NCBI GenBank assembly: GCA_033763655.1
Contig: JANRKD010000001.1
Coordinates: 64,023 to 128,022, forward strand
Source of the DNA: Alphaproteobacteria bacterium
GTDB taxonomy: Bacteria > Pseudomonadota > Alphaproteobacteria > Rickettsiales > UBA3002
DNA length: 64,000 nucleotides
Direction: 5' to 3'
Made by a program: the position numbers and the translations under genes. The notes below the pieces were generated by a model. That model worked only from the letters and a program-made list of their open reading frames with translations. It was not told the DNA's origin and ran no database searches. Positions 4,760-20,335 of this stretch are shown piece by piece. Numbering within the stretch: the first letter of the stretch is position 1; the number at the start of each line of letters is the position of its first letter.

Positions 4760-5107
4760 ATGGCATTCTACGAATGCACCTTTGTTACGCGCCCGGATTT
4801 TTCCAAGGCCGACGTACAAAAACTCACCGACACCTTAAGCAAGATCGTCACCGACGGTCAAGGTACAGTGATTAAATCCGAATATTGGGGTCTGCGTCAG
4901 CTCGCCTATAAAATCAACAAAATGAGCAAGGGTCACTACACGCTGCTCGGGATTGAAGCCGCGCCCGCGACGCTCAAAGAGCTTGAGCGCAACATGGGTA
5001 TCAACGAGGACATCATCCGCACGCTGACCGTGCGCGTGGATACGATGGACGCCACCCCGACTGTCATGCTCCAGAGCAAATCTGGCGACAGCTACGAAGC
5101 AGCATAA
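4760..5107 (+). CDS. rpsF: 30S ribosomal protein S6
   Basis: [13 protein letters not shown]...[13 protein letters not shown]. Start at ATG 4760 with GGGAGAAG SD. The ORF-track start at 4688 lies inside the leader palindrome. Confidence 0.9.
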
Positions 5108-5115
5108 GGAGAGAG

Positions 5116-5484
5116 ATGATGACCACAGGATTCCAACCGCGCGGTGAGCGCAGTGAACGCCCTTCGGCAGGCCGCGGTGAAGGCCGCAGCTTCGGCGGCG
5201 GTGACCGTAGTGAACGTCCGACCCGCGATGGCGCGGCCGGTGGCGATGCTGCCGGTGGCCGCAAAGTTTTCTTCCGGCGTCGCAAATCGTGCCCGCTGAC
5301 CGGCCCGAACGCGCCCGCAGTCGATTACAAAGATGTGAAACTGCTTGGCCGCTTCATCTCGGAGCGTGGCAAAATTCTGCCAAGCCGCATTACTGCCGTT
5401 TCCGCGAAGAAGCAGCGCGCGCTTTCGCAAGCGATTAAACGCGCCCGCAACCTCGCTTTGTTACCATACGTCGTCCAGAACTAG
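5116..5484 (+). CDS. rpsR: 30S ribosomal protein S18 with Arg/Gly-rich N-terminal extension
   Basis: Conserved core [12 protein letters not shown]...[33 protein letters not shown], preceded by about 45 extra residues (GERSERP...GDRSERP). Confidence 0.9.
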
Positions 5485-5495
5485 GAGTATAGATC

Positions 5496-6035
5496 ATGGA
5501 TGTTATTTTGTTAGAACGCATCAGCCGCCTGGGTTCCGTGGGCGACGTGGTGAAAGTAAAAAACGGCTTTGCCCGTAACTTCCTGCTGCCGCAGAAAAAA
5601 GCGCTGCGCGCGACGGAGGACAACAAAAAGGTGTTTGAAGGCAAACGCGCCGTGCTCGAAAAGCAGAACGCCGAAACCCGCGCCGCCGCCGAGAAACTGG
5701 CCGCCACCATGGCCAACCTTTCGGTCAGCATCATCCGTCAGGCGGCGGAAGACGGCAAGCTCTACGGCTCGGTCGCCGCGCGCGATGTCGAAGTCGCCCT
5801 CGCGGAAGCGGGCCACAAGGTCGAGCGTCGCTATATCGACCTCACCACGGCCATCAAATCGCTCGGCGTCTACGAAGCCATCGTCAACCTGCACCCCGAG
5901 GTGCATGTGAAGGTGAAAGTGCAGGTCGCCCGCAACGCCGAAGGCCTGCTCGCGCAGGAACTCGCCGCCAAAGCCGACGACAAAACCGACGAAGCCGCGA
6001 TGTTCGACGAAGCCGAGGACGAATCGGCCGCATAG
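5496..6035 (+). CDS. rplI: 50S ribosomal protein L9
   Basis: MDVILLERISRLGSVGDVVKVKNGFARNFLLPQKKA, follows rpsR. Confidence 0.95.
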   Translation: MDVILLERISRLGSVGDVVKVKNGFARNFLLPQKKALRATEDNKKVFEGKRAVLEKQNAETRAAAEKLAATMANLSVSIIRQAAEDGKLYGSVAARDVEVALAEAGHKVERRYIDLTTAIKSLGVYEAIVNLHPEVHVKVKVQVARNAEGLLAQELAAKADDKTDEAAMFDEAEDESAA

Positions 6036-6045
6036 CCGGCTCAGG

Positions 6046-6081
6046 GCGTCATCCCGGTTTGCGAAGCAATACCGGGATCCC
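6046..6081. repeat. REP-like palindromic unit (same family as 3341-3470)
   Basis: ggcgtcatcccggtttgcgaagcaataccgggatcccc. Confidence 0.5.
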
Positions 6082-6096
6082 CCGAATCAGCCGAAT

Positions 6097-6130
6097 AAAA
6101 ACCCGGTCAGCAATGGCCGGGTTTTTTGTT
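6097..6130 (+). terminator. Rho-independent terminator after rplI
   Basis: aaaaACCCGGtcagcaatggCCGGGTtttttgtt: short GC stem followed by a T-run. Confidence 0.6.
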
Positions 6131-6297
6131 GTCCGTTACTTATACACATCACTGGGGTACATTCACCGCACGACTCATCCTCACATTCCCACATTTCTTA
6201 TCCGGCGGTGTGGGTAACTGGAACAGTGGCATAGTCCTGCGCATGTATGTTAGTATGGTGGATGCCCACAACAAAAAATGATGGTGAGTACCCGCCC

Positions 6298-7791
6298 ATG
6301 GCAACCGTTCTCGAACACCCCAACACCAATGCAAAAAATGATGGCACAAGCGGGGCGGCGCTGAAGGAAGCACCGAATAATCTGGAAGCGGAGCAGGCCG
6401 TACTTGGCGCCATCCTCGCCAACAACGAAGCCCTGAACCATGTCGGCAGCAGCCTTGAAGCCGAGGATTTCTACGCCGGCATCCACCAGCGCATCTTCAA
6501 GGCCATCAAGCAGTTCAACGACAAAGGCCTCATTGCCAACCCGGTCACCCTCAAGCATCATTTCGCAGGCGCCGAAGGGGTCGAAGACCACTACCTCGCG
6601 CGGCTCGTCGGCAGCGCCACCTCCATCATCAACATCCATGATTACGCCCGCATCATCCGCGATCTGGCGATCAAGCGCCGCCTGATTGGCATCGGCGAAA
6701 CCACCGTGGTCGAGGCCTTCAATCCGCAAAGCGAACATGCGGGCATTACGCTGGTCGAGATGACCGAGCAGCAATTGTTCAAGCTCGCCACCGAAGGCGA
6801 CGGCGAAGGCGGCTTCAAACCCCTCAAAAATGCCGTGGTCGAAGCCTTGAACCGCACCGAAAAAGCCTTCCAGCGCTCGGGCGCGGTCGTCGGTGTCGAT
6901 ACAGGCTTCAAAGACATGAACCGTGTGCTGGGCGGGCTGCACCCTTCGGATCTGCTCATCCTCGCCGGACGGCCCGCCATGGGCAAAACCGCGCTTGCCA
7001 CCACCATGGCCTACAACGCCGCCAAAGCTCTTGCTAACGAGGATATGGACGCCCATGCGCGCAACGCAAAGCCGCGTTCGGTCGGGTTCTTCTCGCTTGA
7101 GATGTCGGGCGAACAGCTGGCGATGCGTCTGCTGGCCGCCGCCGGGGGCATCAGCTCGCACAAGCTCCAGCGCGGCGATCTAACGCAGGAAGAATTCCAG
7201 CGGCTGGTCGAAAGCTCGACCGAAATGGCTAACCTGCCCTTGCATATCGACGATACTCCGGCGCTGACCATCGGTGCGCTGCGCAGCCGCGCGCGCCGCT
7301 TAAAGCGGGTGCATAATGTCGCGCTGCTGGTCATCGACTACCTGCAGCTGGTGCGCCCTTCGAGCAGCAACGGCCAGGCCAACCGCGTGCAGGAAGTTTC
7401 GGAAATCACGCAAGGGCTGAAAGCCATCGCCAAAGAACTCGACATCCCGGTGATTGCCCTGTCGCAGCTGTCGCGCGCGGTCGAGAGCCGCGACGACAAA
7501 CGCCCGCAACTGGCCGATCTGCGCGAATCGGGCTCCATCGAGCAGGACGCGGATATTGTCATGTTCGTCTACCGCGAGGAATACTATATGCAGCGCACGC
7601 AGCCGCGCGAAGGCACCCCCGAACATAGCGAGTGGCAGAATAAAATGGCCGAAATCCACGGGCTGGCGGATGTCATTATCGCCAAGCACCGTAACGGGCC
7701 GGTGGATACGGTCACGCTCCAGTTCCAGTCCGAGCTGACCCGCTTCATGGACCATGTGAAGCCCGACCACCTGCCCGAGCAATATTATTAG
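6298..7791 (+). CDS. dnaB: Replicative DNA helicase
   Basis: NLEAEQAVLGAIL N-terminal motif, Walker A GRPAMGKTA, SLEMS, IDYLQL, QLSRAVE. Start placed at ATG 6298. Confidence 0.95.
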   Translation: MATVLEHPNTNAKNDGTSGAALKEAPNNLEAEQAVLGAILANNEALNHVGSSLEAEDFYAGIHQRIFKAIKQFNDKGLIANPVTLKHHFAGAEGVEDHYLARLVGSATSIINIHDYARIIRDLAIKRRLIGIGETTVVEAFNPQSEHAGITLVEMTEQQLFKLATEGDGEGGFKPLKNAVVEALNRTEKAFQRSGAVVGVDTGFKDMNRVLGGLHPSDLLILAGRPAMGKTALATTMAYNAAKALANEDMDAHARNAKPRSVGFFSLEMSGEQLAMRLLAAAGGISSHKLQRGDLTQEEFQRLVESSTEMANLPLHIDDTPALTIGALRSRARRLKRVHNVALLVIDYLQLVRPSSSNGQANRVQEVSEITQGLKAIAKELDIPVIALSQLSRAVESRDDKRPQLADLRESGSIEQDADIVMFVYREEYYMQRTQPREGTPEHSEWQNKMAEIHGLADVIIAKHRNGPVDTVTLQFQSELTRFMDHVKPDHLPEQYY

Positions 7792-7820
7792 GCACGGCTG
7801 GCGGCCAGTGAGGTCGCCGG

Positions 7821-7930
7821 CAGTCAGTAGCCAGTAGTCAGTAGCCAGTGAAGGAAGGAAGGAAGAAAGGAAGTAAAGCAAGGGGAGTCGCTCCCTCGCC
7901 CGCTTGCGGGAGAAGGCCGGGGTGAGGGAA
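7821..7930. repeat. Low-complexity tandem repeats plus a 'GEG' type REP-like sequence
   Basis: cagtagc/cagtagt heptamer run, (ggaa)n run, then ctccctcgcccgcttgcgggagaaggccggggtgaggg. Confidence 0.4.
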
Positions 7931-8098
7931 GTGGCAGCAAGGCAGAGTCGAAAAGAATATGTCAGCCCCCGATCATTCTCGAACCAGGCAATTCGCTGGT
8001 AATCATAACTCGCCAGAGCCTTCAACGCCTCCATGATATTGTGCCTGTAAAGGTACATCATTTGAACAGCTCCGGTGGGAGTGAATCACGCCTGCCGA

Positions 8099-8440
8099 TC
8101 AACCAATGCGCTCCATCATTGCATGGGCGCTTGACGGCGTAAGAGGAACCGTGATCAATGGATTCGCCAATTGGTGTATTATTTCTGCCAAAACCTCCTC
8201 ATGGTTTATTTCATACGCAATATCTTCCCGCCCCTCGATGGCGTTTGCCCAGGCTTCCACCTCATCTGCCGTTAGCCTTCCTTCCTCATAACGCCCCAGT
8301 ATACGCGCCACATCCGAACGGGTAAGGGTAAGCAACGCCACCGGCGAATCCCACGGAAACTTATTCAAATCCGAAACGATACGGCTCACACGATCCGAGG
8401 CCTCTACCAGACTGACCAGTAATTCTGCGCGCGTTCTCAT
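8099..8440 (-). CDS. Hypothetical protein (113 aa)
   Basis: Clean ORF in a lower-GC patch between dnaB and alr. No motif recognised. Confidence 0.55.
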   Translation of the reverse strand: MRTRAELLVSLVEASDRVSRIVSDLNKFPWDSPVALLTLTRSDVARILGRYEEGRLTADEVEAWANAIEGREDIAYEINHEEVLAEIIHQLANPLITVPLTPSSAHAMMERIG

Positions 8441-10977: not shown

Positions 10978-11757
10978 ATGACCGCAACGCCCAAAATCAA
11001 GCTCACCGACGTGCATAAAAAGTTCGGCAGCAAAGTGGTGCTCGATGGGGTGAATCTGCAGGTGATGCCCGGCGAGTCGCTGGTCATTATCGGCGGTTCC
11101 GGCTCGGGCAAATCGGTGACCATCAAAACCGTGCTCGGCCTCATCCGCCCGGATTCGGGCACCATCGAGGTCGATGGCGAAAACATCACCCGTTACTCCT
11201 TCAGTCAGCGAGCACCGATGCTGCAAAAAATCGGCATGCTGTTTCAGGGCGGCGCGCTGTTCGATTCGCTGCCGGTGTGGAAAAACATCACCTTCGGCGC
11301 GGCTGAACGCGGCCAGAAGCTGACCACCGCGACGGCGCGAACCCTCGCGGTTGAAAAGCTCGAAGCGGTCGGCCTGAAGGCGGAAGTGGCCGATCTGATG
11401 CCCGCCGAGCTTTCGGGCGGGATGCAGAAACGCGTCGGCCTCGCGCGGGCCATCGCCGCCAACCCCGACCTGCTGTTTTTCGACGAACCAACCACCGGGC
11501 TTGATCCCATCATGGCCGACGTGATTAACAACCTGATTGTCAGCAGCGTCAAAAAGCTGGGGTCCACCGCGGTCACCATCACCCACGACATGGCCAGTGT
11601 GCGCAAGATCGCCAGCCGCGTGGCGATGATCTATCAGGGTAAAATTATCTGGGATGGCCCCATTTCCGACATCGACAATTCCGGCAACCCGTATGTCGAT
11701 CAGTTCATCCACGGCAAAGCCGAAGGGCCGATTACCAACGAATTTAGGCGGGCCTAG
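10978..11757 (+). CDS. mlaF: MlaF-family ABC transporter ATP-binding protein
   Basis: Walker A GGSGSGKS, signature LSGGMQKRVGLARA, Walker B LLFFDEPT. Confidence 0.85.
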   Translation: MTATPKIKLTDVHKKFGSKVVLDGVNLQVMPGESLVIIGGSGSGKSVTIKTVLGLIRPDSGTIEVDGENITRYSFSQRAPMLQKIGMLFQGGALFDSLPVWKNITFGAAERGQKLTTATARTLAVEKLEAVGLKAEVADLMPAELSGGMQKRVGLARAIAANPDLLFFDEPTTGLDPIMADVINNLIVSSVKKLGSTAVTITHDMASVRKIASRVAMIYQGKIIWDGPISDIDNSGNPYVDQFIHGKAEGPITNEFRRA

Positions 11758-11826
11758 AAGGGGCATTTGCGCACAACTTCATCGAATCTTCATGTTTCGT
11801 TAGCGCTGTGCTAGTATAGTGAGCGG

Positions 11827-14376
11827 ATGGGACAAGCTACACATTATCTTGATTATAATCAGCTCTATAGCCTTTTGCTCGACTATGATGCGGCTACACA
11901 GCGGTTAAAAATCACGTTTCAAAACCCAAATGAACATTGGGATCGCTTTCCACGCGCCGTGCTTAAGCAGCTGAATTTAGCTGAGATTGCACCAACACAG
12001 CCTTCGGCATCCCCGTCATCTAAACCAACATCCTATGGGAAAAGCGTCACGTTCTACAAGGTCAGCCGCGAATTCACCCTGCGCATGGGCGAGGAACCAA
12101 TTGGCACCTACAGCATCAGTAATACGGGCACACTCACAGCAACCTACCACCGCCCACTGACGGTCGATGAAACGCGGCGCATCGGAACATTCCATGAATG
12201 TCCGCCCTACTCGCAGCGCCGCTCTGGCCTGACGTCCGAAGAGAACCAATCCCTTCTGGCCGAGGCGAAACAGGCAGTTTTTACCGATATCCATACCCAT
12301 AGTTCAGGCCAAATTAGCGCCTCAGGGCTACTTGCCGTTGCCATGCGCCAAAGGCCCTATTATTACCCTATCGCACTGATGCGTGATGCTGGCATTGATA
12401 CCAGCTACAGCGCCATTCCTGAAAAACACCGCCAACAAATACCCCGTGTCCCTTTTCCTCCCCTCGAGTTGGCGGGAGTTAACTATCCCGCTCTCGTAGA
12501 CGCAGCAGACTTACACGCTCTTAGCTCCGATAACCTCAAAAAGCTGGCTGCGCAGATGGCACTACCCGCCGATCATCAATCCACATTTTCCAATCTTGAA
12601 TACGATGGCAACCGCTTCCGCTACCCCTTAAGCAAGGATAGTTCTCTCACCATCGCCATCCGCAAAAAAGAGGCTGAAGAATACGCCGCCCAAGGCATCG
12701 AAACGGCCTTAACCTCGTTCGTTGGCATCGACAAACCCCAAACCCTCCGCGCCATTCATACCGCAGTAGAAGAATTACATGCCCATCCAAAAACACCAAA
12801 CTTCGTCCAGCGCTACATGGTTGGCATTCCGCGCGGCCTTTCCTCAGAAGAAATTCAGGCGGCGCTCGAAAAAGCCAAAATATCGCTGGATAGCCCCTAT
12901 ATTATGGGCGTCGATATGCTGGGCTACGAAAGCGATAAGACCAAAAAATTCATCACAATGCTTGATAGCTATGCTGCATGGGCCAACGAGCATAAGCCTG
13001 GCTCATTCATTCGTGTTCATGCAGGTGAGAATGACAAAAATCACGACAACGTAAAAGATTTTCTTAAAGTCGCGATTAAGTACCCAAACCTAAAATTCCT
13101 GGTTGGCCACGGCATCTATGGCATGGATGAGGAAACGCTCGGATTATGTAAGAAATTGGACAACCAAATCACTGTTGAATTGAACCCCTCCTCCAACATC
13201 GCCCTCAATAATATCGACGATGTGCGTCAGCTGCCATTCGATGCACTGCTTAACAACCATATCCCTTTTGTAGTCAGTTCAGATTCCGCAGGCATGTATC
13301 AGACTGATGCGTTGCAGTTGGGGTTAAGCGCCTATTACGGCGGATTGACTCACGAGGGTTTTCAGGCAATGCGTAAGCATCAGCAGCATTTAGTTGATCA
13401 CCTGCACGACTATTCGAAATCTGCTGCCCAACCCATCCCAAACTGGGAAACCTCTGAAGGGAAAGAAGCGTGGCTGGATGACATGACCGCACGTTTGGGA
13501 AAGGTTCCCAGCGCATCGCCGCCCCCCATCGTTACGATAGATGCCGACCACATCACCAAAAAATTGAAGACAGATCAGGTTTCTCTCATCGAATCGGGAA
13601 CGCTCCCGCCCGAACTTAAAGGCAAGTATCCTGTCACCATCATCGGCGCTTCAGGGGCTAGCTGGAGGCGCCTTAGCCCAAGCCAACAGCGTGAAAATGC
13701 CATCGCCATTGATATGCTCATCCATGCACTCGGCGAGAATTGCTACATCGTACAAGGGCGCAACAAAAAAGAAGGCTTAAGCAAGGTAATTAACCAATCG
13801 CTAACAGCATCAAATAGCACGCGCAAAGAAAACGAGACCCCCGAACTCTATAATGTCGGGCTGTATATGAATCCAAGTTTTGATGACAGCCACTCCTATA
13901 AACATCTTTCCCATATGATTCACATAGAAGGCCAGCCACTTGGACTTGCCCGAGCCATCGTCGATCACACGTTCGACCATGAAGGTGCTCTGATTGCTGT
14001 GGGGGGCGCTGCCTACACGCGCGATACTATTCATGAGGCTGACCAGCGCGGCATTCGCGATAACCATCCTGGCAACCGAAAAATGATGCTCTTACTCTCC
14101 AATACTGAAGGTGCGTCGAAGGAAAAAGCGAATAGGCTGCACCCGGATTACCAAGCAATTGATGGGCACCAACTGATCAGAAAACTGCATCATAATCGTG
14201 GCGATTTATTCCCCAAAACATTCGCATTGCGCGACCTCGATCGCTTGTATAACGAATCTGCTGCACGCGTCACAACCTATGGTTATAACATTGCCGATTC
14301 CGCTGTAAGCGAACCGCAATTACTCGCTAGACAGCCCGTCCCAACGCCCAAATCTGCTCCAAAAATCTGGCGTTAA
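11827..14376 (+). CDS. Large adenosine-deaminase-like (amidohydrolase) protein with unknown N-terminal domain and Rossmann/LOG-like C-terminal domain
   Basis: ADA-type metal/catalytic motifs in order: FTDIHTHSSG (HxH), IRVHAGEN (HAGE), LVGHGIYG, FVVSSDSAGMY. C-terminus has VTIIGASGAS ... IAVGGAAYTRDTIHEA (LOG/SLOG-like; inference). Clearly lower GC than both neighbours. Confidence 0.7.
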   Translation: MGQATHYLDYNQLYSLLLDYDAATQRLKITFQNPNEHWDRFPRAVLKQLNLAEIAPTQPSASPSSKPTSYGKSVTFYKVSREFTLRMGEEPIGTYSISNTGTLTATYHRPLTVDETRRIGTFHECPPYSQRRSGLTSEENQSLLAEAKQAVFTDIHTHSSGQISASGLLAVAMRQRPYYYPIALMRDAGIDTSYSAIPEKHRQQIPRVPFPPLELAGVNYPALVDAADLHALSSDNLKKLAAQMALPADHQSTFSNLEYDGNRFRYPLSKDSSLTIAIRKKEAEEYAAQGIETALTSFVGIDKPQTLRAIHTAVEELHAHPKTPNFVQRYMVGIPRGLSSEEIQAALEKAKISLDSPYIMGVDMLGYESDKTKKFITMLDSYAAWANEHKPGSFIRVHAGENDKNHDNVKDFLKVAIKYPNLKFLVGHGIYGMDEETLGLCKKLDNQITVELNPSSNIALNNIDDVRQLPFDALLNNHIPFVVSSDSAGMYQTDALQLGLSAYYGGLTHEGFQAMRKHQQHLVDHLHDYSKSAAQPIPNWETSEGKEAWLDDMTARLGKVPSASPPPIVTIDADHITKKLKTDQVSLIESGTLPPELKGKYPVTIIGASGASWRRLSPSQQRENAIAIDMLIHALGENCYIVQGRNKKEGLSKVINQSLTASNSTRKENETPELYNVGLYMNPSFDDSHSYKHLSHMIHIEGQPLGLARAIVDHTFDHEGALIAVGGAAYTRDTIHEADQRGIRDNHPGNRKMMLLLSNTEGASKEKANRLHPDYQAIDGHQLIRKLHHNRGDLFPKTFALRDLDRLYNESAARVTTYGYNIADSAVSEPQLLARQPVPTPKSAPKIWR

Positions 14377-14426: not shown

Positions 14427-15848
14427 ATGGCTAAATTTTCCAACCCCTATGTCTGCCAAGCGTGCGGTGCAATCAGCGCCAAATGGGCCGGTCGCTGCGA
14501 TGCCTGCGGCGAATGGAACAGCATCGTCGAAGAAGTGCAGAGCACTGCCCCAAAAGGCCTGAAACCCGGAAAATCCAAAGGCTTACAAATTTCTACCCTC
14601 GCCGATGCGGTCGCCCCCCATGCCCGCGAAACCACCGGCATTGCCGAGCTTGACCGCGTGCTCGGTGGCGGTCTGGTCGAAGGCTCGGCCATTCTGCTCG
14701 GCGGCGACCCGGGCATCGGCAAATCGACCCTGCTCTTGCAAGCGGCGGCGGCGCTCGCAAGTGGCCGTTCCATGACACGCACAGCCTCCCCCGACGCATC
14801 GACGGCAACAGGCGGCACCCCGAAGCTCGCTTCCGTCAAAAACGTCCTTTATATCTCGGGCGAGGAGTCGCTGGCGCAAATCCAACTGCGCAGCCAGCGC
14901 CTCGGCCTGGCGGATGCACCGCTCAAACTGGCCACCGCCACCTCGGTGCGCGACATTCTCGCCAGCATCGACGGCACGCACGCCCCCGACATTGTGATTA
15001 TTGATTCCATCCAGACCATGTTTGTCGATTCGCTCGATTCTGCACCGGGCACCGTAGCGCAGGTGCGCGCCTCCACCCATGAACTCATCCGCGCCGCCAA
15101 AAAGCGCGGGTTTGCACTCATCCTCGTCGGCCATGTCACCAAGGACGGCCAGATTGCCGGGCCGCGCGTGCTCGAACACATGGTCGATACCGTGCTCTAT
15201 TTCGAGGGTGACCGCGGGCAGTATTACCGCATCCTGCGGGCGGTAAAAAACCGCTTCGGCGCGACCGACGAAATCGGCGTTTTCGCCATGAGCGACACCG
15301 GCCTTGAGGAAGTGAAAAACCCTTCCGCCCTGTTTCTGCATGCCCGCGAGCACCCGGTCAGCGGCGCCGCCGTCTTTGCGGGGATGGAGGGCACGCGCCC
15401 ACTGCTGATCGAGATTCAGGCGCTGGTATCGCCCAGCAGCATGAGCACGCCGCGCCGCGCCACGGTCGGCTACGACAGCGCCCGCCTGTCGATGATTCTC
15501 GCCGTGCTCGAAACCCGCGCGGGCATGCGCTTTGCGGATAAAGAAGTGTTCCTGAACGTCGCGGGCGGCCTCAAAATCACCGAACCGGCGGCGGATGTGG
15601 CCGTCGCCATGGCGCTACTGTCGGCATTACTCGACAAACCGCTGCCTGTGAATCTGGTCGGCTTTGGCGAAATCGGCCTGACCGGCGAAATCCGCAGTGT
15701 CAGCCGCGCCGACACGCGGTTGAAAGAAGCGGTGGCGCTTGGCTTCACCCGTGCGGTCATCCCCAGCTCGGCGCCCGAGAAATTAAACGCCCGCGACCGC
15801 GTCGCCCATGTGGACGCGCTGGTGCGGTTCATGATAGAAAGCGGCTGA
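14427..15848 (+). CDS. radA: DNA repair protein RadA
   Basis: N-terminal Zn finger CQACG...CDACGEW, Walker A GDPGIGKST, KNRFG motif, Lon-like C-terminus. Confidence 0.95.
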   Translation: MAKFSNPYVCQACGAISAKWAGRCDACGEWNSIVEEVQSTAPKGLKPGKSKGLQISTLADAVAPHARETTGIAELDRVLGGGLVEGSAILLGGDPGIGKSTLLLQAAAALASGRSMTRTASPDASTATGGTPKLASVKNVLYISGEESLAQIQLRSQRLGLADAPLKLATATSVRDILASIDGTHAPDIVIIDSIQTMFVDSLDSAPGTVAQVRASTHELIRAAKKRGFALILVGHVTKDGQIAGPRVLEHMVDTVLYFEGDRGQYYRILRAVKNRFGATDEIGVFAMSDTGLEEVKNPSALFLHAREHPVSGAAVFAGMEGTRPLLIEIQALVSPSSMSTPRRATVGYDSARLSMILAVLETRAGMRFADKEVFLNVAGGLKITEPAADVAVAMALLSALLDKPLPVNLVGFGEIGLTGEIRSVSRADTRLKEAVALGFTRAVIPSSAPEKLNARDRVAHVDALVRFMIESG

Positions 15849-15872: not shown

Positions 15873-16544
15873 ATGAGCGATATTTCCCTGACCCTGTTCG
15901 ATTTCGGCGTGCTTTTTGTGGTGGGCCTGTCGGCGCTGCTCTCGTTTTTCCGTGGCTTCCTGCGCGAGTTCATTTCACTCGCGGCGTGGCTGGGCGCTTC
16001 GGTGATAACCCTGCGCACCCTGCCGATGGTCAGCCACTACCTCGAACCCCGGGTCGGTAGCACCGTGGTGGCGAGCGGCATCGCGGCGGTCGCCATCTTT
16101 TTCACCACCCTCATCGCGATTTCCATGGTCAGCGGCCTGCTGCTGAAATTGCTGAAACCCGGCGCCAAAGTCGGCCTGTTCGATAACCTCGCCGGGCTGT
16201 GTTTCGGCGTGGCGCGCGGCGTGCTTATTGTCGCCATCGCCTATTTCATCATGGGCATCGTGCTGCTTGAAAAAGACTTCCCGAAAGCCGTCACCGCCTC
16301 GCAGGCACGGCCTTACATCGCACGGGTGGCCACATGGGTCGGCACCCTCACCCCAAGCGCGCTGGATGCTGTGACCGCCGCCCCTCCCGGCACGGCAGAT
16401 GCCCCGCCCGCTAAAGTGGTAAAAACCATCGACGATGCGGTGGACGATCTGCCCGATGCCGACACGCCCGAGGATTCCATGCCCTCGATTGAGGATTTGA
16501 AACAACGTATCCGCGAAGAAAACGAGAAAAACGATGTTCGATAA
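15873..16544 (+). CDS. cvpA: CvpA-family membrane protein
   Basis: Multi-TM N-terminus and acidic tail. Directly upstream of, and overlapping, purF, which is the classic cvpA-purF arrangement. Confidence 0.8.
   Translation: MSDISLTLFDFGVLFVVGLSALLSFFRGFLREFISLAAWLGASVITLRTLPMVSHYLEPRVGSTVVASGIAAVAIFFTTLIAISMVSGLLLKLLKPGAKVGLFDNLAGLCFGVARGVLIVAIAYFIMGIVLLEKDFPKAVTASQARPYIARVATWVGTLTPSALDAVTAAPPGTADAPPAKVVKTIDDAVDDLPDADTPEDSMPSIEDLKQRIREENEKNDVR

Positions 16545-18752: not shown

Positions 18753-20335
<1,583 letters not shown>

What the first reader, a model, noticed from the sequence alone, without database searches (positions are those of the whole stretch)
11827..14376. Orphan 849-aa adenosine-deaminase-like fusion protein inserted between core genes mlaF and radA
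Seen in the sequence:
- A single low-GC gene with its own 70-nt upstream spacer interrupts an otherwise GC-rich core stretch.
- It carries the ordered ADA/amidohydrolase motifs HxH (DIHTHSSG), HAGE (VHAGEN), GHG and SSDSAG.
- These are flanked by an unknown domain of about 150 aa at the N-terminus and a Rossmann-like domain of about 250 aa at the C-terminus (IIGASGAS ... AVGGAAYTRDTIHEA).

Established knowledge: large divergent adenosine deaminases act as effectors in antiphage systems (RADAR RdrB). LOG/SLOG-type domains are proposed nucleotide sensors or processors in conflict systems.

Inference: this may be a single-protein nucleotide-modifying or nucleotide-depleting effector with a built-in ligand-sensing domain, acquired horizontally.
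Basis: partly seen in the sequence, partly recalled or inferred. Interest (0 to 1): 0.6.

Follow-up and report, generated by a model that had tools for sequence, protein, structure and literature searches.

The report
Swappable SLOG-linked adenine-nucleotide deaminase cassette
This gene encodes a large, unstudied enzyme: an adenosine-deaminase-type catalytic core joined to a TRPM2-like nucleotide-binding (SLOG) domain. It is not a one-off insertion, because every species of this alphaproteobacterial genus carries some version at the same spot, as very different, interchangeable cassettes.

Summary
The ORF, its motifs and its GC dip are real. The deaminase fold and the C-terminal SLOG fold are both confirmed by structure prediction and Foldseek. 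"Orphan" and "inserted" are wrong.

- **Family size:** full-length homologues form about 70 clusters at 90% identity. The SLOG domain alone finds 272 representatives at 50% identity.
- **Fixed position:** nearly all homologues whose context I read lie in the same mlaF|radA slot of one genus.
- **Cassette types:** the slot holds type A (this gene), type B (same three domains, opposite strand, about 27% identical) or type C (a shorter, unrelated deaminase-fold protein). A sister genus has a Ham1+LOG protein there.
- **Scattering:** the types are scattered over the species tree. Monophyly of type B is rejected (p-AU 4e-47).
- **Selection:** between close species the gene is under purifying selection (dN/dS 0.07, like its neighbours).
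- **This allele:** its GC3 (0.53 against about 0.8) points to import by allelic replacement.

My reading is a ligand-gated adenine-nucleotide deaminase. I lean slightly towards a conflict role over purine homeostasis, and both remain open. No partner genes, TIR or CD-NTase genes, or plasmid or phage homologues were found.

The scan had flagged a similar fusion in another genome (a first-reader note only).

The parts
11827..14376 (+). Complete gene, 849 aa (P0001): N-terminal domain, ADA core, helical linker, SLOG domain, disordered tail
   Evidence: ORF list and translation. The start codon agrees with the homologues' N-termini. The AF2 model has pLDDT 89.5 and pTM 0.89.
11758..11826 (+). 69-nt spacer between the mlaF stop and the start codon; the compositional break begins here
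   Evidence: No consensus sigma-70 promoter was found on the + strand.
11827..12276 (+). N-terminal domain (residues 1-150): beta-rich with two helices, no known family. R117 is invariant
   Evidence: No Pfam hit. No significant PDB hit with a profile, best E 0.22. Secondary structure comes from the model. The domain is conserved in types A and B and in relatives outside the slot.
12277..13506 (+). Adenosine/AMP-deaminase-type TIM barrel (residues about 151-560) with an insert of about 70 aa after strand 1 and a C-terminal helical linker. The metal and catalytic residues are H156, H158, H398, E401, H428 and D486
   Evidence: Pfam PF00962, 44-47 bits. Foldseek against PDB gives ADAL, Plasmodium ADA and MAPDA at E 4e-11 to 1e-8. 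Invariant columns are listed. S160 aligns with the Asp of 'HLDG' in Vibrio ADA.
13507..14292 (+). C-terminal SLOG-superfamily domain (residues 561-822). The conserved loops are G607 (GASG), G644-R645-x-K647-x-x-G650, G726-G727-x-x-x-T731-R732-D733 and G762-A763-S764
   Evidence: A separate AF2 model has pLDDT 86.7. Foldseek gives TRPM2 6pur at E 1.3e-5, TM1055 1rcu at E 1.9e-5 and TMt 0.73, plus PpnN, LOG 5zbk and DprA. Distant relatives give sub-threshold LSDAT_prok and YAcAr Pfam hits. This protein has no direct Pfam or PDB sequence hit.
14293..14373 (+). Low-confidence, poorly conserved C-terminal tail (residues 823-849)
   Evidence: pLDDT is below 50 for residues 823-849.
10978..11757 (+). 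Left border of the slot: mlaF-type ABC ATPase, conserved at 71-90% identity in relatives
14427..15848 (+). Right border of the slot: radA. Its first 80 or so codons have lowered GC3 (0.60-0.65), which may be the end of a recombination tract

Best explanation
**Molecular mechanism**
- The gene encodes a cytoplasmic, single-chain, ligand-gated adenine-nucleotide deaminase.
- The ADA-type metal centre is intact. I predict it converts an adenine nucleotide to the inosine form. Candidate substrates are AMP, ADP, ATP, dATP or an ADP-ribose-type molecule.
- A nucleotide rather than adenosine is expected. The Asp that binds the free 5'-OH in nucleoside deaminases is Ser160 here, and the purine-N7 Asp is Ser487.
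- The C-terminal SLOG domain is closest in fold to the ADP-ribose-binding N-terminal domain of TRPM2. I read it as an allosteric nucleotide sensor that switches the deaminase on. This is the same logic as CARF-ADA (Cad1) and SLOG-SIR2 (ThsA).

**Evolutionary status**
- The gene is not a new insertion. It is one of at least three deeply diverged, interchangeable cassettes (A, B and C) that always fill the mlaF|radA slot in this genus.
- The cassettes are exchanged between species by recombination in the conserved flanks.
- The allele in this genome was probably imported that way from a lower-GC relative.

**Biological role**
- I lean slightly towards a conflict role, such as a phage-triggered or stress-triggered nucleotide-pool switch kept polymorphic by frequency-dependent selection.
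- Plain purine homeostasis is nearly as likely.

**Shown versus inferred**
- Shown: the folds, the catalytic residues, the synteny, the cassette scattering and the purifying selection.
- Inferred: the substrate, the sensor role of the SLOG domain, the ligand and the biological role.
For: - **ADA fold and catalytic set:**
- **Asp19-equivalent is Ser160:**. The rule that this Asp excludes phosphorylated substrates is stated in PMC13733733. Type B (HTHSS) and type C (HVHVP) also lack it.
- **SLOG fold:**. Distant members hit LSDAT_prok ('SLOG in TRPM') just below threshold.
- **Recurrent ADA-SLOG-NUDIX fusions** (P0040, P0168, P0189). The Nudix part is closest among solved structures to unnamed MutT/Nudix proteins, and more weakly to NrtR and NadM-Nudix.
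- **Same slot** in all type A and type B loci of the genus.
- **One ADA-family gene per genome** in the genus, and none found in 16 of 17 other families of the order.
- **Scattering of types over the flank tree:** 8 changes against 8.7 for shuffled labels. Monophyly of B is rejected at p-AU 3.6e-47.
- **Sharp cassette borders:** two species with flanks 85-88% identical in DNA carry type A and type B, with the break exactly at the gene borders.
- **Purifying selection:** dN/dS is 0.066, the same as mlaF, radA and purF.
- **Import of this allele:** GC3 is 0.53 against 0.78-0.82. dS is saturated against the nearest allele while the flanks show dS about 0.9.
- **No sign of site-specific insertion:** no flanking repeats or adjacent tRNA.
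Against: - No enzyme assay exists for any member of the family.
- No signal-making partner was found. The 96.6%-complete genome has no TIR, ThsB or CD-NTase. No conserved neighbour appears in any context.
- The gene is essentially universal in the genus and strongly constrained. That is unusual for defence genes and typical of housekeeping genes.
- Type C has no SLOG domain, so a sensor is not essential to whatever the slot provides.
- No homologues occur on plasmids or phages.
- PADLOC gives only a weak hit, confined to the ADA part.
- The SLOG domain could be a second catalytic, LOG/PpnN-like domain. It keeps a GGxxxTx[D/E] loop resembling PGGxGTxxE.
Confidence: 0.45

Rival explanations
1. 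Housekeeping purine-homeostasis enzyme. On this reading it is a bacterial analogue of eukaryotic AMP deaminase, or of AMP nucleosidase and PpnN, which trims the adenylate pool. The SLOG domain would be an allosteric site for ordinary metabolites (ATP, GTP, ppGpp, ADPR) or a second, LOG-like nucleosidase step (AMP to IMP to hypoxanthine plus ribose-5-P). The different cassettes would be functionally equivalent xenologues that displaced each other in situ.
For: - There is one copy per genome, and the gene is present in essentially all genomes of the genus.
- dN/dS is 0.066, like mlaF, radA and purF.
- The gene is embedded in, and co-directional with, housekeeping genes two genes upstream of purF.
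- Every occupant of the slot is a purine-nucleotide enzyme, including type C without a SLOG domain and Ham1+LOG in the sister genus.
- PpnN and LOG are among the fold matches.
- There are no partners and no mobile-element links.
Against: - No ADA-family gene was found in 16 of 17 other families of the order, so the order does without it.
- The genome already has canonical LOG and RdgB/Ham1 and de novo purF.
- Near-random scattering of cassettes that are 27% identical or unrelated among species with 85-88% identical flanks is hard to explain without diversifying or balancing selection.
- Type B is on the opposite strand, so operon membership is not required.
- GC3 is lower than in the flanks in most genomes.
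- There is no profile similarity to a true LOG domain.
Confidence: 0.35
2. Exported toxin or effector that deaminates adenine nucleotides in another cell, either a eukaryotic host or grazer or a rival bacterium. This would be in the manner of the R-body-delivered ADP deaminase DeaR. The small ORF of about 90 aa found downstream in some relatives would be an immunity protein or chaperone.
For: - A large ADA-fold toxin acting on ADP has just been described (PMC13733733).
- A conserved ORF of 86-93 aa, translationally coupled to the deaminase gene, follows type A genes in some lineages.
- The gene has low GC and shows allelic turnover.
Against: - There is no signal peptide, no hydrophobic N-terminus and no known delivery domain (sequence; Pfam).
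- The small ORF is absent from this window, where the spacer to radA is 50 nt, and from most type A loci.
- No RebB was found, although the control genomes did not ring either, so that search is uninformative.
- There are no secretion-system genes next to the gene in any context read.
Confidence: 0.08
3. One reading: a recently acquired orphan gene, a RADAR-like stand-alone antiphage effector inserted into a core stretch.
For: - GC3 is 0.53 against about 0.8, with a sharp left border.
- The ADA and SLOG folds hold.
- PADLOC gives a weak CARF_ADA hit.
Against: - It is not an orphan.
- The slot is occupied in all relatives read.
- There is no RdrA-like partner, and the neighbouring ATPase is a genuine RadA.
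- There are no insertion scars, no tRNA and no integrase.
- The gene is under purifying selection like the core genes.
Confidence: 0.07

Closest known systems
Cad1 / CAAD (CARF-adenosine deaminase of type III CRISPR; PMC11645235, PMC12669630)
   Same: - A Rossmann-like nucleotide-sensor domain is fused in one chain to an ADA-fold deaminase that acts on a nucleotide (ATP to ITP).
- Cad1 chains appear among the Foldseek matches.
- The only PADLOC hit is the CARF_ADA model.
   Different: - The sensor here is SLOG, not CARF, and it lies C-terminal rather than N-terminal.
- There is an extra N-terminal beta domain.
- There is no CRISPR or cyclase context.
- The PADLOC hit covers only ADA residues 340-495.
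- The gene sits at a genus-wide fixed locus rather than in a defence island.
Thoeris ThsA (SIR2-SLOG; PMC7272460)
   Same: A SLOG domain is used as a ligand sensor fused to a nucleotide-destroying effector, in a single-chain design.
   Different: - The effector here is an ADA, not SIR2.
- No ThsB/TIR signal synthase was found in the genome.
- ThsA is not among the top 50 fold matches of the SLOG domain.
TRPM2 N-terminal MHR1/2 (LSDAT SLOG) plus NUDT9-H
   Same: - It is the best fold match of the C-terminal domain (6pur, 8srd; E about 1e-5).
- Distant family members carry a C-terminal NUDIX domain after the SLOG domain. That echoes the SLOG plus Nudix pairing of TRPM2.
   Different: - There is no channel.
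- This protein gives no Pfam LSDAT hit itself.
- ADP-ribose binding is only inferred.
RADAR RdrB and DeaR (large dodecameric ADA-fold ATP/ADP deaminases; PMC9994260, PMC13733733)
   Same: They are large bacterial ADA-fold proteins that act on adenine nucleotides in conflicts, and they lack the nucleoside-specific Asp.
   Different: - There is no RdrA partner and no reb cluster.
- The domain layout differs (HxH at residue 156, a SLOG tail).
- PADLOC gives no RdrB hit.
- Neither protein was among the top 50 fold matches.
- The oligomeric state here is unknown.
ADAL/MAPDA (N6-methyl-AMP deaminase) and eukaryotic AMP deaminase
   Same: - They are the top structural matches of the catalytic core (8qch, 6ijp, 6iv5).
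- They take nucleotide-monophosphate substrates.
- AMP deaminase is a large, allosterically regulated enzyme.
   Different: - Sequence identity is only 12-18%.
- The second Asp of the 'DD' motif is Ser here.
- This protein has extra N-terminal and SLOG domains.
Allelic families at the E. coli hsd / immigration-control locus (from my own knowledge, not tested here)
   Same: A fixed chromosomal slot between conserved genes is always filled by one of several very divergent, interchangeable alleles, and these are scattered over the strain tree.
   Different: Those alleles are restriction-modification systems with a shown defence role. Here the function is unknown and the exchange is between species.

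Membership tests
Adenosine/AMP deaminase superfamily (Pfam PF00962, amidohydrolase TIM barrel) | Score above the curated family threshold | tested here: met
   44.4 bits against a cut-off of 27, covering residues 328-516 only. All NCBIfam equivalog models score far below their cut-offs, so it is not an orthologue of Add.
Adenosine/AMP deaminase superfamily (Pfam PF00962, amidohydrolase TIM barrel) | The whole (beta/alpha)8 fold is superposable on solved ADAs | tested here: met
   Foldseek gives E 4e-11 to 1e-8, probability 1.0 and TM normalised to target of 0.62-0.76 over 390-450 columns.
Adenosine/AMP deaminase superfamily (Pfam PF00962, amidohydrolase TIM barrel) | Metal and catalytic residues: HxH, H(214), E(217), H(238), D(295) in mouse ADA numbering | tested here: met
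   H156, H158, H398, E401, H428 and D486 are invariant in 38 homologues.
Nucleoside-specific adenosine deaminase (Add/ADA1 type) | Asp19 (HxHxDG), which binds the free 5'-OH, and Asp296 (the second D of the DD motif), which binds N7 | tested here: not met
   Ser160 aligns with that Asp. D486 is followed by S487, or by G in type B.
SLOG superfamily (LOG / DprA / TRPM N-terminal domain) | Rossmannoid fold superposable on LOG, DprA and TRPM MHR1/2 | tested here: met
   Foldseek on the isolated domain model gives 6pur at E 1.3e-5, 1rcu at E 1.9e-5 and TMt 0.73, and also finds 5zbk, 1weh, 6gfl and 5mll.
SLOG superfamily (LOG / DprA / TRPM N-terminal domain) | Match to a curated SLOG sequence model | tested here: inconclusive
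   None of 17 family members gives a Pfam hit, even at E up to 10. Only distant relatives found with the domain profile give sub-threshold hits: LSDAT_prok at E 1.6e-4 and 5e-4, and YAcAr at E 1e-5.
LOG / PpnN nucleotide N-glycosidases (catalytic SLOG) | PGGxGTxxE catalytic motif and profile similarity to the LOG family | tested here: not met
   The loop reads GGAAYTRD, with GGxxxTx[D/E] conserved. hhalign against a bona fide LOG domain found nothing. There is no PF03641 hit.
RADAR (RdrA + RdrB) | An adjacent RdrA AAA+ ATPase, and an RdrB-type deaminase recognised by defence-system models | tested here: not met
   The neighbours are mlaF and a true radA. PADLOC returns no RdrB model.
Cad1 (CARF-ADA) | An N-terminal CARF domain and a type III CRISPR context | tested here: not met
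   The PADLOC hit covers only the ADA residues 340-495. The N-terminal domain has no CARF, Pfam or PDB match. There are no cas genes in the neighbourhood.
Thoeris (ThsA + ThsB) | A TIR-domain signal synthase encoded with the SLOG effector | tested here: not met
   PF08937 and PF13676 find nothing in the 96.6%-complete genome, and the control genomes rang.
Kongming (KomA deaminase + KomB HAM1 + KomC SIR2) | A three-gene operon with a catalytically dead HAM1 and a SIR2 | tested here: not met
   It is a solitary gene. The only Ham1 in the genome is a full-length, canonical-scoring copy on another contig. I did not search the genome for SIR2.
DeaR-type R-body toxin | Linkage to reb (R-body) genes | tested here: inconclusive
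   There is no RebB hit in the genome, but the control genomes did not ring either. I did not compare the sequence with DeaR.

The most novel reading that the evidence does not exclude
The family may be a previously unrecognised class of single-chain immune or conflict effectors. An LSDAT/TRPM2-like SLOG domain would sense an ADP-ribose-type or other NAD-derived nucleotide, for example the product of NAD-depleting defences or of phage counter-defence. It would then switch on an ADA-fold enzyme that deaminates adenine nucleotides, or ADPR itself. In this alphaproteobacterial genus the effector would be kept as balanced, interchangeable idiomorphs (A, B, C) in a core chromosomal slot. That would be a bacterial analogue of a trans-species immune polymorphism.
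Probability: 0.25. Interest if true: 0.8.

Novelty: new variant of a known kind. Interest (0 to 1): 0.55.

Why it matters
Nucleotide deaminases have recently emerged as immune effectors (RADAR, Cad1, Kongming) and as toxins (DeaR). SLOG domains are known as sensors (ThsA, TRPM2). I found no description or assay of an ADA-SLOG fusion, with or without NUDIX, in the papers I could search. The fusion nevertheless forms a family of a few hundred 50%-identity clusters.

The locus is also a clean natural experiment. It is one fixed slot, always filled with a purine-nucleotide enzyme, yet its forms are exchanged among species with near-random distribution. If the role is immune, it shows that a defence gene can be universal in a genus and still polymorphic. 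If the role is metabolic, it is an unusually clear case of repeated in-situ displacement of one enzyme by distant analogues.

Either answer is testable with simple biochemistry and phage challenge in laboratory strains.

Tried and rejected
- **Sequence searches for the two unknown domains found nothing significant.**
  - Pfam on the cut domains and on all 17 members found nothing.
  - PDB profile searches gave best E-values of 0.29 (C-domain) and 0.22 (N-domain).
  - hhalign of the C-domain profile against the LOG domain of the sister genus found nothing, as did BLASTP.
  - The SLOG assignment therefore rests on fold, plus sub-threshold hits in distant relatives.
- **The N-terminal domain could not be fold-searched alone.** Its identity stays unknown.
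- **Mobile-element origin is rejected.**
  - There are no plasmid or phage homologues.
  - There are no flanking repeats beyond chance and no adjacent tRNA.
  - The BFVD fold search gave one weak ADA-like hit only.
- **Continuous positive selection as the cause of divergence is rejected.** dN/dS is 0.066 between close species.
- **Thoeris-like or CBASS-like signalling partners were not found**.
- **The R-body link is uninformative**.
- **No consensus promoter or terminator is specific to the gene**.
- **The NUDT9 link is unconfirmed.** From memory I suspected that the NUDIX part of P0040 is NUDT9-like. The PDB search did not return NUDT9. It returned unnamed MutT/Nudix proteins, NrtR and NadM-Nudix, so I claim only a weak ADPR-type link.
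- **Two sources were unavailable.**
  - The Burroughs et al. 2015 SLOG paper is not in the library, so I could not check whether the fusion was listed there.
Full report

Yes, at the stated coordinates.
- The ORF at 11827-14376 (+) encodes 849 aa.
- It starts 69 nt after the mlaF stop and ends 50 nt before radA.
- All quoted motifs are present.
- The neighbours are alr, mlaE, mlaF-type ABC ATPase | gene | radA (TIGR00416, 545 bits), cvpA, purF and an SDR.
- GC is about 0.50 against about 0.63.
- GC3 is 0.45-0.60 all along the gene against 0.78-0.82 in mlaF, with a sharp break at the end of mlaF. On the other side, the first 80 or so codons of radA are slightly lowered, at 0.60-0.65.

**2. Anatomy**

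An AlphaFold2 model built on 38 homologues is confident (pLDDT 89.5, pTM 0.89). It shows four parts.

(i) Residues 1-150 form a beta-rich domain with two helices.
- It has no Pfam hit and no significant PDB profile hit.
- It is conserved in all relatives, with R117 invariant.

(ii) Residues about 151-560 form an ADA-type TIM barrel.
- Pfam A_deaminase scores 44 bits against a cut-off of 27, but only over the C-terminal half.
- Foldseek superposes whole ADA chains: human ADAL, Plasmodium ADA, plant N6-mAMP deaminase and bacterial Add. E-values are 4e-11 to 1e-8 and TM to target is 0.62-0.76. Cad1 appears lower in the list.
- H156, H158, H398, E401, H428 and D486 are invariant in the family, so the enzyme should be active.
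- Two substrate-contact residues differ from nucleoside deaminases.
  - The Asp of HxHxDG is Ser160 (alignment to Vibrio ADA).
  - The second Asp of the 'DD' motif is Ser487.
- A recent preprint states that this first Asp excludes phosphorylated substrates, and that it is missing in AMP deaminases and in the ADP deaminase DeaR (PMC13733733).
- I therefore infer a nucleotide substrate. This is an inference, not a result.

(iii) Residues 561-822 were folded separately (pLDDT 86.7). They form a SLOG-superfamily domain.
- The best fold matches are the ADP-ribose-binding N-terminal domain of TRPM2 (E 1.3e-5) and TM1055 (E 1.9e-5, TMt 0.73).
- PpnN, type-I LOG, TT1887 and DprA follow.
- No sequence model sees the domain in this protein.
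- Distant relatives give sub-threshold LSDAT_prok ('SLOG in TRPM') and YAcAr hits.
- The conserved loops (GASG; GRxKxxG; GGxxxTx[D/E]; GAS) are in the places where SLOG domains bind nucleotides. That placement is from my own knowledge of the fold.
- The canonical LOG catalytic motif is not kept, and hhalign to a true LOG domain is negative.

(iv) Residues 823-849 are disordered.

**3. Not an orphan and not an insertion**

- Full-length homologues at 27-71% identity form 40 to 67 clusters at 90% identity.
- The C-terminal domain profile finds 272 representatives at 50% identity, 182 of them at E below 1e-10. Most are 750-1000 aa long with the domain at about 550-850, which is the same architecture.
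- In the window's genus, 19 of 23 other species genomes give a match. Each has a single ADA-family gene.
- No ADA-family gene was found in 16 of 17 other families of the order.
- In every congeneric locus I could read, the gene lies between mlaF and radA.
- A few relatives sit elsewhere, each as a solitary gene:
  - beside a GST/Grx2-like gene;
  - between ctpA and a two-component system;
  - with an added NUDIX domain in a marine contig.

**4. The slot is a cassette site**

The slot holds one of three kinds of occupant within the genus.
- **Type A** is this gene, on the + strand.
- **Type B** has the same three domains but is only 26-29% identical to type A. It lies on the opposite strand.
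- **Type C** is a 471-553-aa ADA-fold protein with no SLOG domain and no detectable pairwise similarity to type A.
- A sister genus has a 940-aa Ham1-like plus LOG protein in the slot instead.

On a maximum-likelihood tree of the flanking genes (mlaE+mlaF+radA, 22 loci) the types are scattered almost at random.
- The tree needs 8 changes, against 8.7 for shuffled labels.
- Well-supported branches alone force at least 5 changes.
- Holding type B together costs 421 log-likelihood units (p-AU 3.6e-47).
- The window's own well-supported clade of 8 holds five type A, two type C and one type B.

Two species whose flanks are 85-88% identical in DNA carry type A and type B. Similarity stops exactly at the mlaF stop and resumes at the radA start. 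There are no repeats, tRNA or integrase at the borders, and no plasmid or phage homologues. Exchange by homologous recombination in the flanks is therefore the simplest mechanism. This is inferred.

**5. Selection**

Between two close species, dN/dS of the gene is 0.066 (core 0.037, N-domain 0.10, C-domain 0.09). That equals mlaF (0.066), radA (0.049) and purF (0.044). The deep divergence therefore reflects old allelic lineages, not ongoing rapid change.

The window's allele and its nearest relative (70% identity) are saturated at synonymous sites, while their flanks have dS of about 0.9. Together with the GC3 gap, this suggests that this genome obtained its allele by replacement from an unsampled, lower-GC relative. 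In other genomes the GC3 dip ranges from none to moderate.

**6. What it most likely does**

I commit to a molecular mechanism at about 0.45. The protein is a cytoplasmic adenine-nucleotide deaminase. Its activity is gated by a nucleotide ligand bound to the SLOG domain, which is the logic of Cad1 (CARF-ADA) and ThsA (SIR2-SLOG).

ADP-ribose-type ligands or substrates are a lead, for three reasons:
- the best fold match is the ADPR site of TRPM2;
- the ADA-SLOG-NUDIX architecture recurs;
- the solved structures nearest to that Nudix domain include, weakly, NrtR and NadM-Nudix.

The biological role is unresolved.
- Cassette scattering and compositional oddity favour a conflict role.
- Universality, strong constraint, the lack of partners (no TIR or CD-NTase) and the SLOG-less type C favour purine homeostasis with in-situ displacement.
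- I put these at roughly 0.45 and 0.35.
- An exported toxin gets about 0.08. It is prompted by DeaR and by a conserved, translationally coupled ORF of about 90 aa after some type A genes. That ORF is absent here.

**7. Comparison with known systems**

The protein works like Cad1 and ThsA in design, but it is a member of neither. It is also not a member of RADAR or Kongming (see the membership table). It is a member of the ADA superfamily, though not of the nucleoside-specific Add type, and by fold it is a member of the SLOG superfamily.

I found no paper describing an ADA-SLOG fusion. The key 2015 survey of SLOG domains is not in the library, so prior mention there cannot be excluded.

A first-reader note of this scan flagged a similar ADA-SLOG protein in another genome, without follow-up.

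**8. Verdict**

This is a real, intact gene. The more interesting result is the idiomorph-like cassette polymorphism of a gene that is universal in the genus. Interest is 0.55, and I class it as a new variant of a known kind.

Noticed in passing
L017 (G024:C18) 4890-7712, minus strand: In the sister genus the mlaF|radA slot holds a 940-aa protein instead. It has a partial Ham1/ITPase-like domain and a C-terminal LOG domain (PF03641, 65 bits), and by eye it also has further LOG-like segments. It is another purine-nucleotide enzyme in the same place.
   Followed up: partly
L016 (G018:C9) 6766-8427 and L018 (G017:C14) 5947-7362: Type C occupant of the slot. It is a 471-553-aa ADA-fold protein with motifs HVHVPG, GHYGEG and SDDPQ. 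It has no SLOG domain and no pairwise similarity to the window's protein.
   Followed up: partly
L024 8555-8836; L026 6562-6840; G000:C11:10687-10908: A conserved ORF of 86-93 aa (...ECYF[IL]LR...VNIADYGE[IL]L[AS]SGYG...) overlaps the stop codon of some type A genes. It has no Pfam family. The window's genome has a weak paralogue elsewhere (E 5.5e-8, with an internal TAA), but none at this locus.
   Followed up: partly
L025 6001-8655 (P0040); P0168; P0189: Relatives outside the genus carry a C-terminal NUDIX domain after the ADA and SLOG parts. The protein in L025 lies in a marine contig near TerD genes. The pairing of SLOG with Nudix recalls TRPM2.
   Followed up: partly
P0170 (6896 aa), P0079 (1779 aa): Giant proteins carry this SLOG domain at about residues 590-880. 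P0079 also has the ADA domain. Their remaining parts were not examined.
   Followed up: no
window 14427-15848 (radA), about codons 113-138: RadA has a low-complexity insertion of about 25 aa (SMTRTASPDASTATGGTPKLA...) just after the Walker A region. Variable insertions occur at the same point in 3 of 17 other loci, and they are not linked to cassette type.
   Followed up: partly
window 15873-16544 (cvpA): cvpA evolves much faster than its neighbours. It is 44-66% identical in relatives, with dN/dS of 0.27-0.34 against 0.04-0.11 for radA and purF.
   Followed up: no
window 18753-20000: A tRNA-Ile (GAT) lies at 18753-18829 and is followed by a drop in GC to about 0.50. This may be another island.
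   Followed up: no
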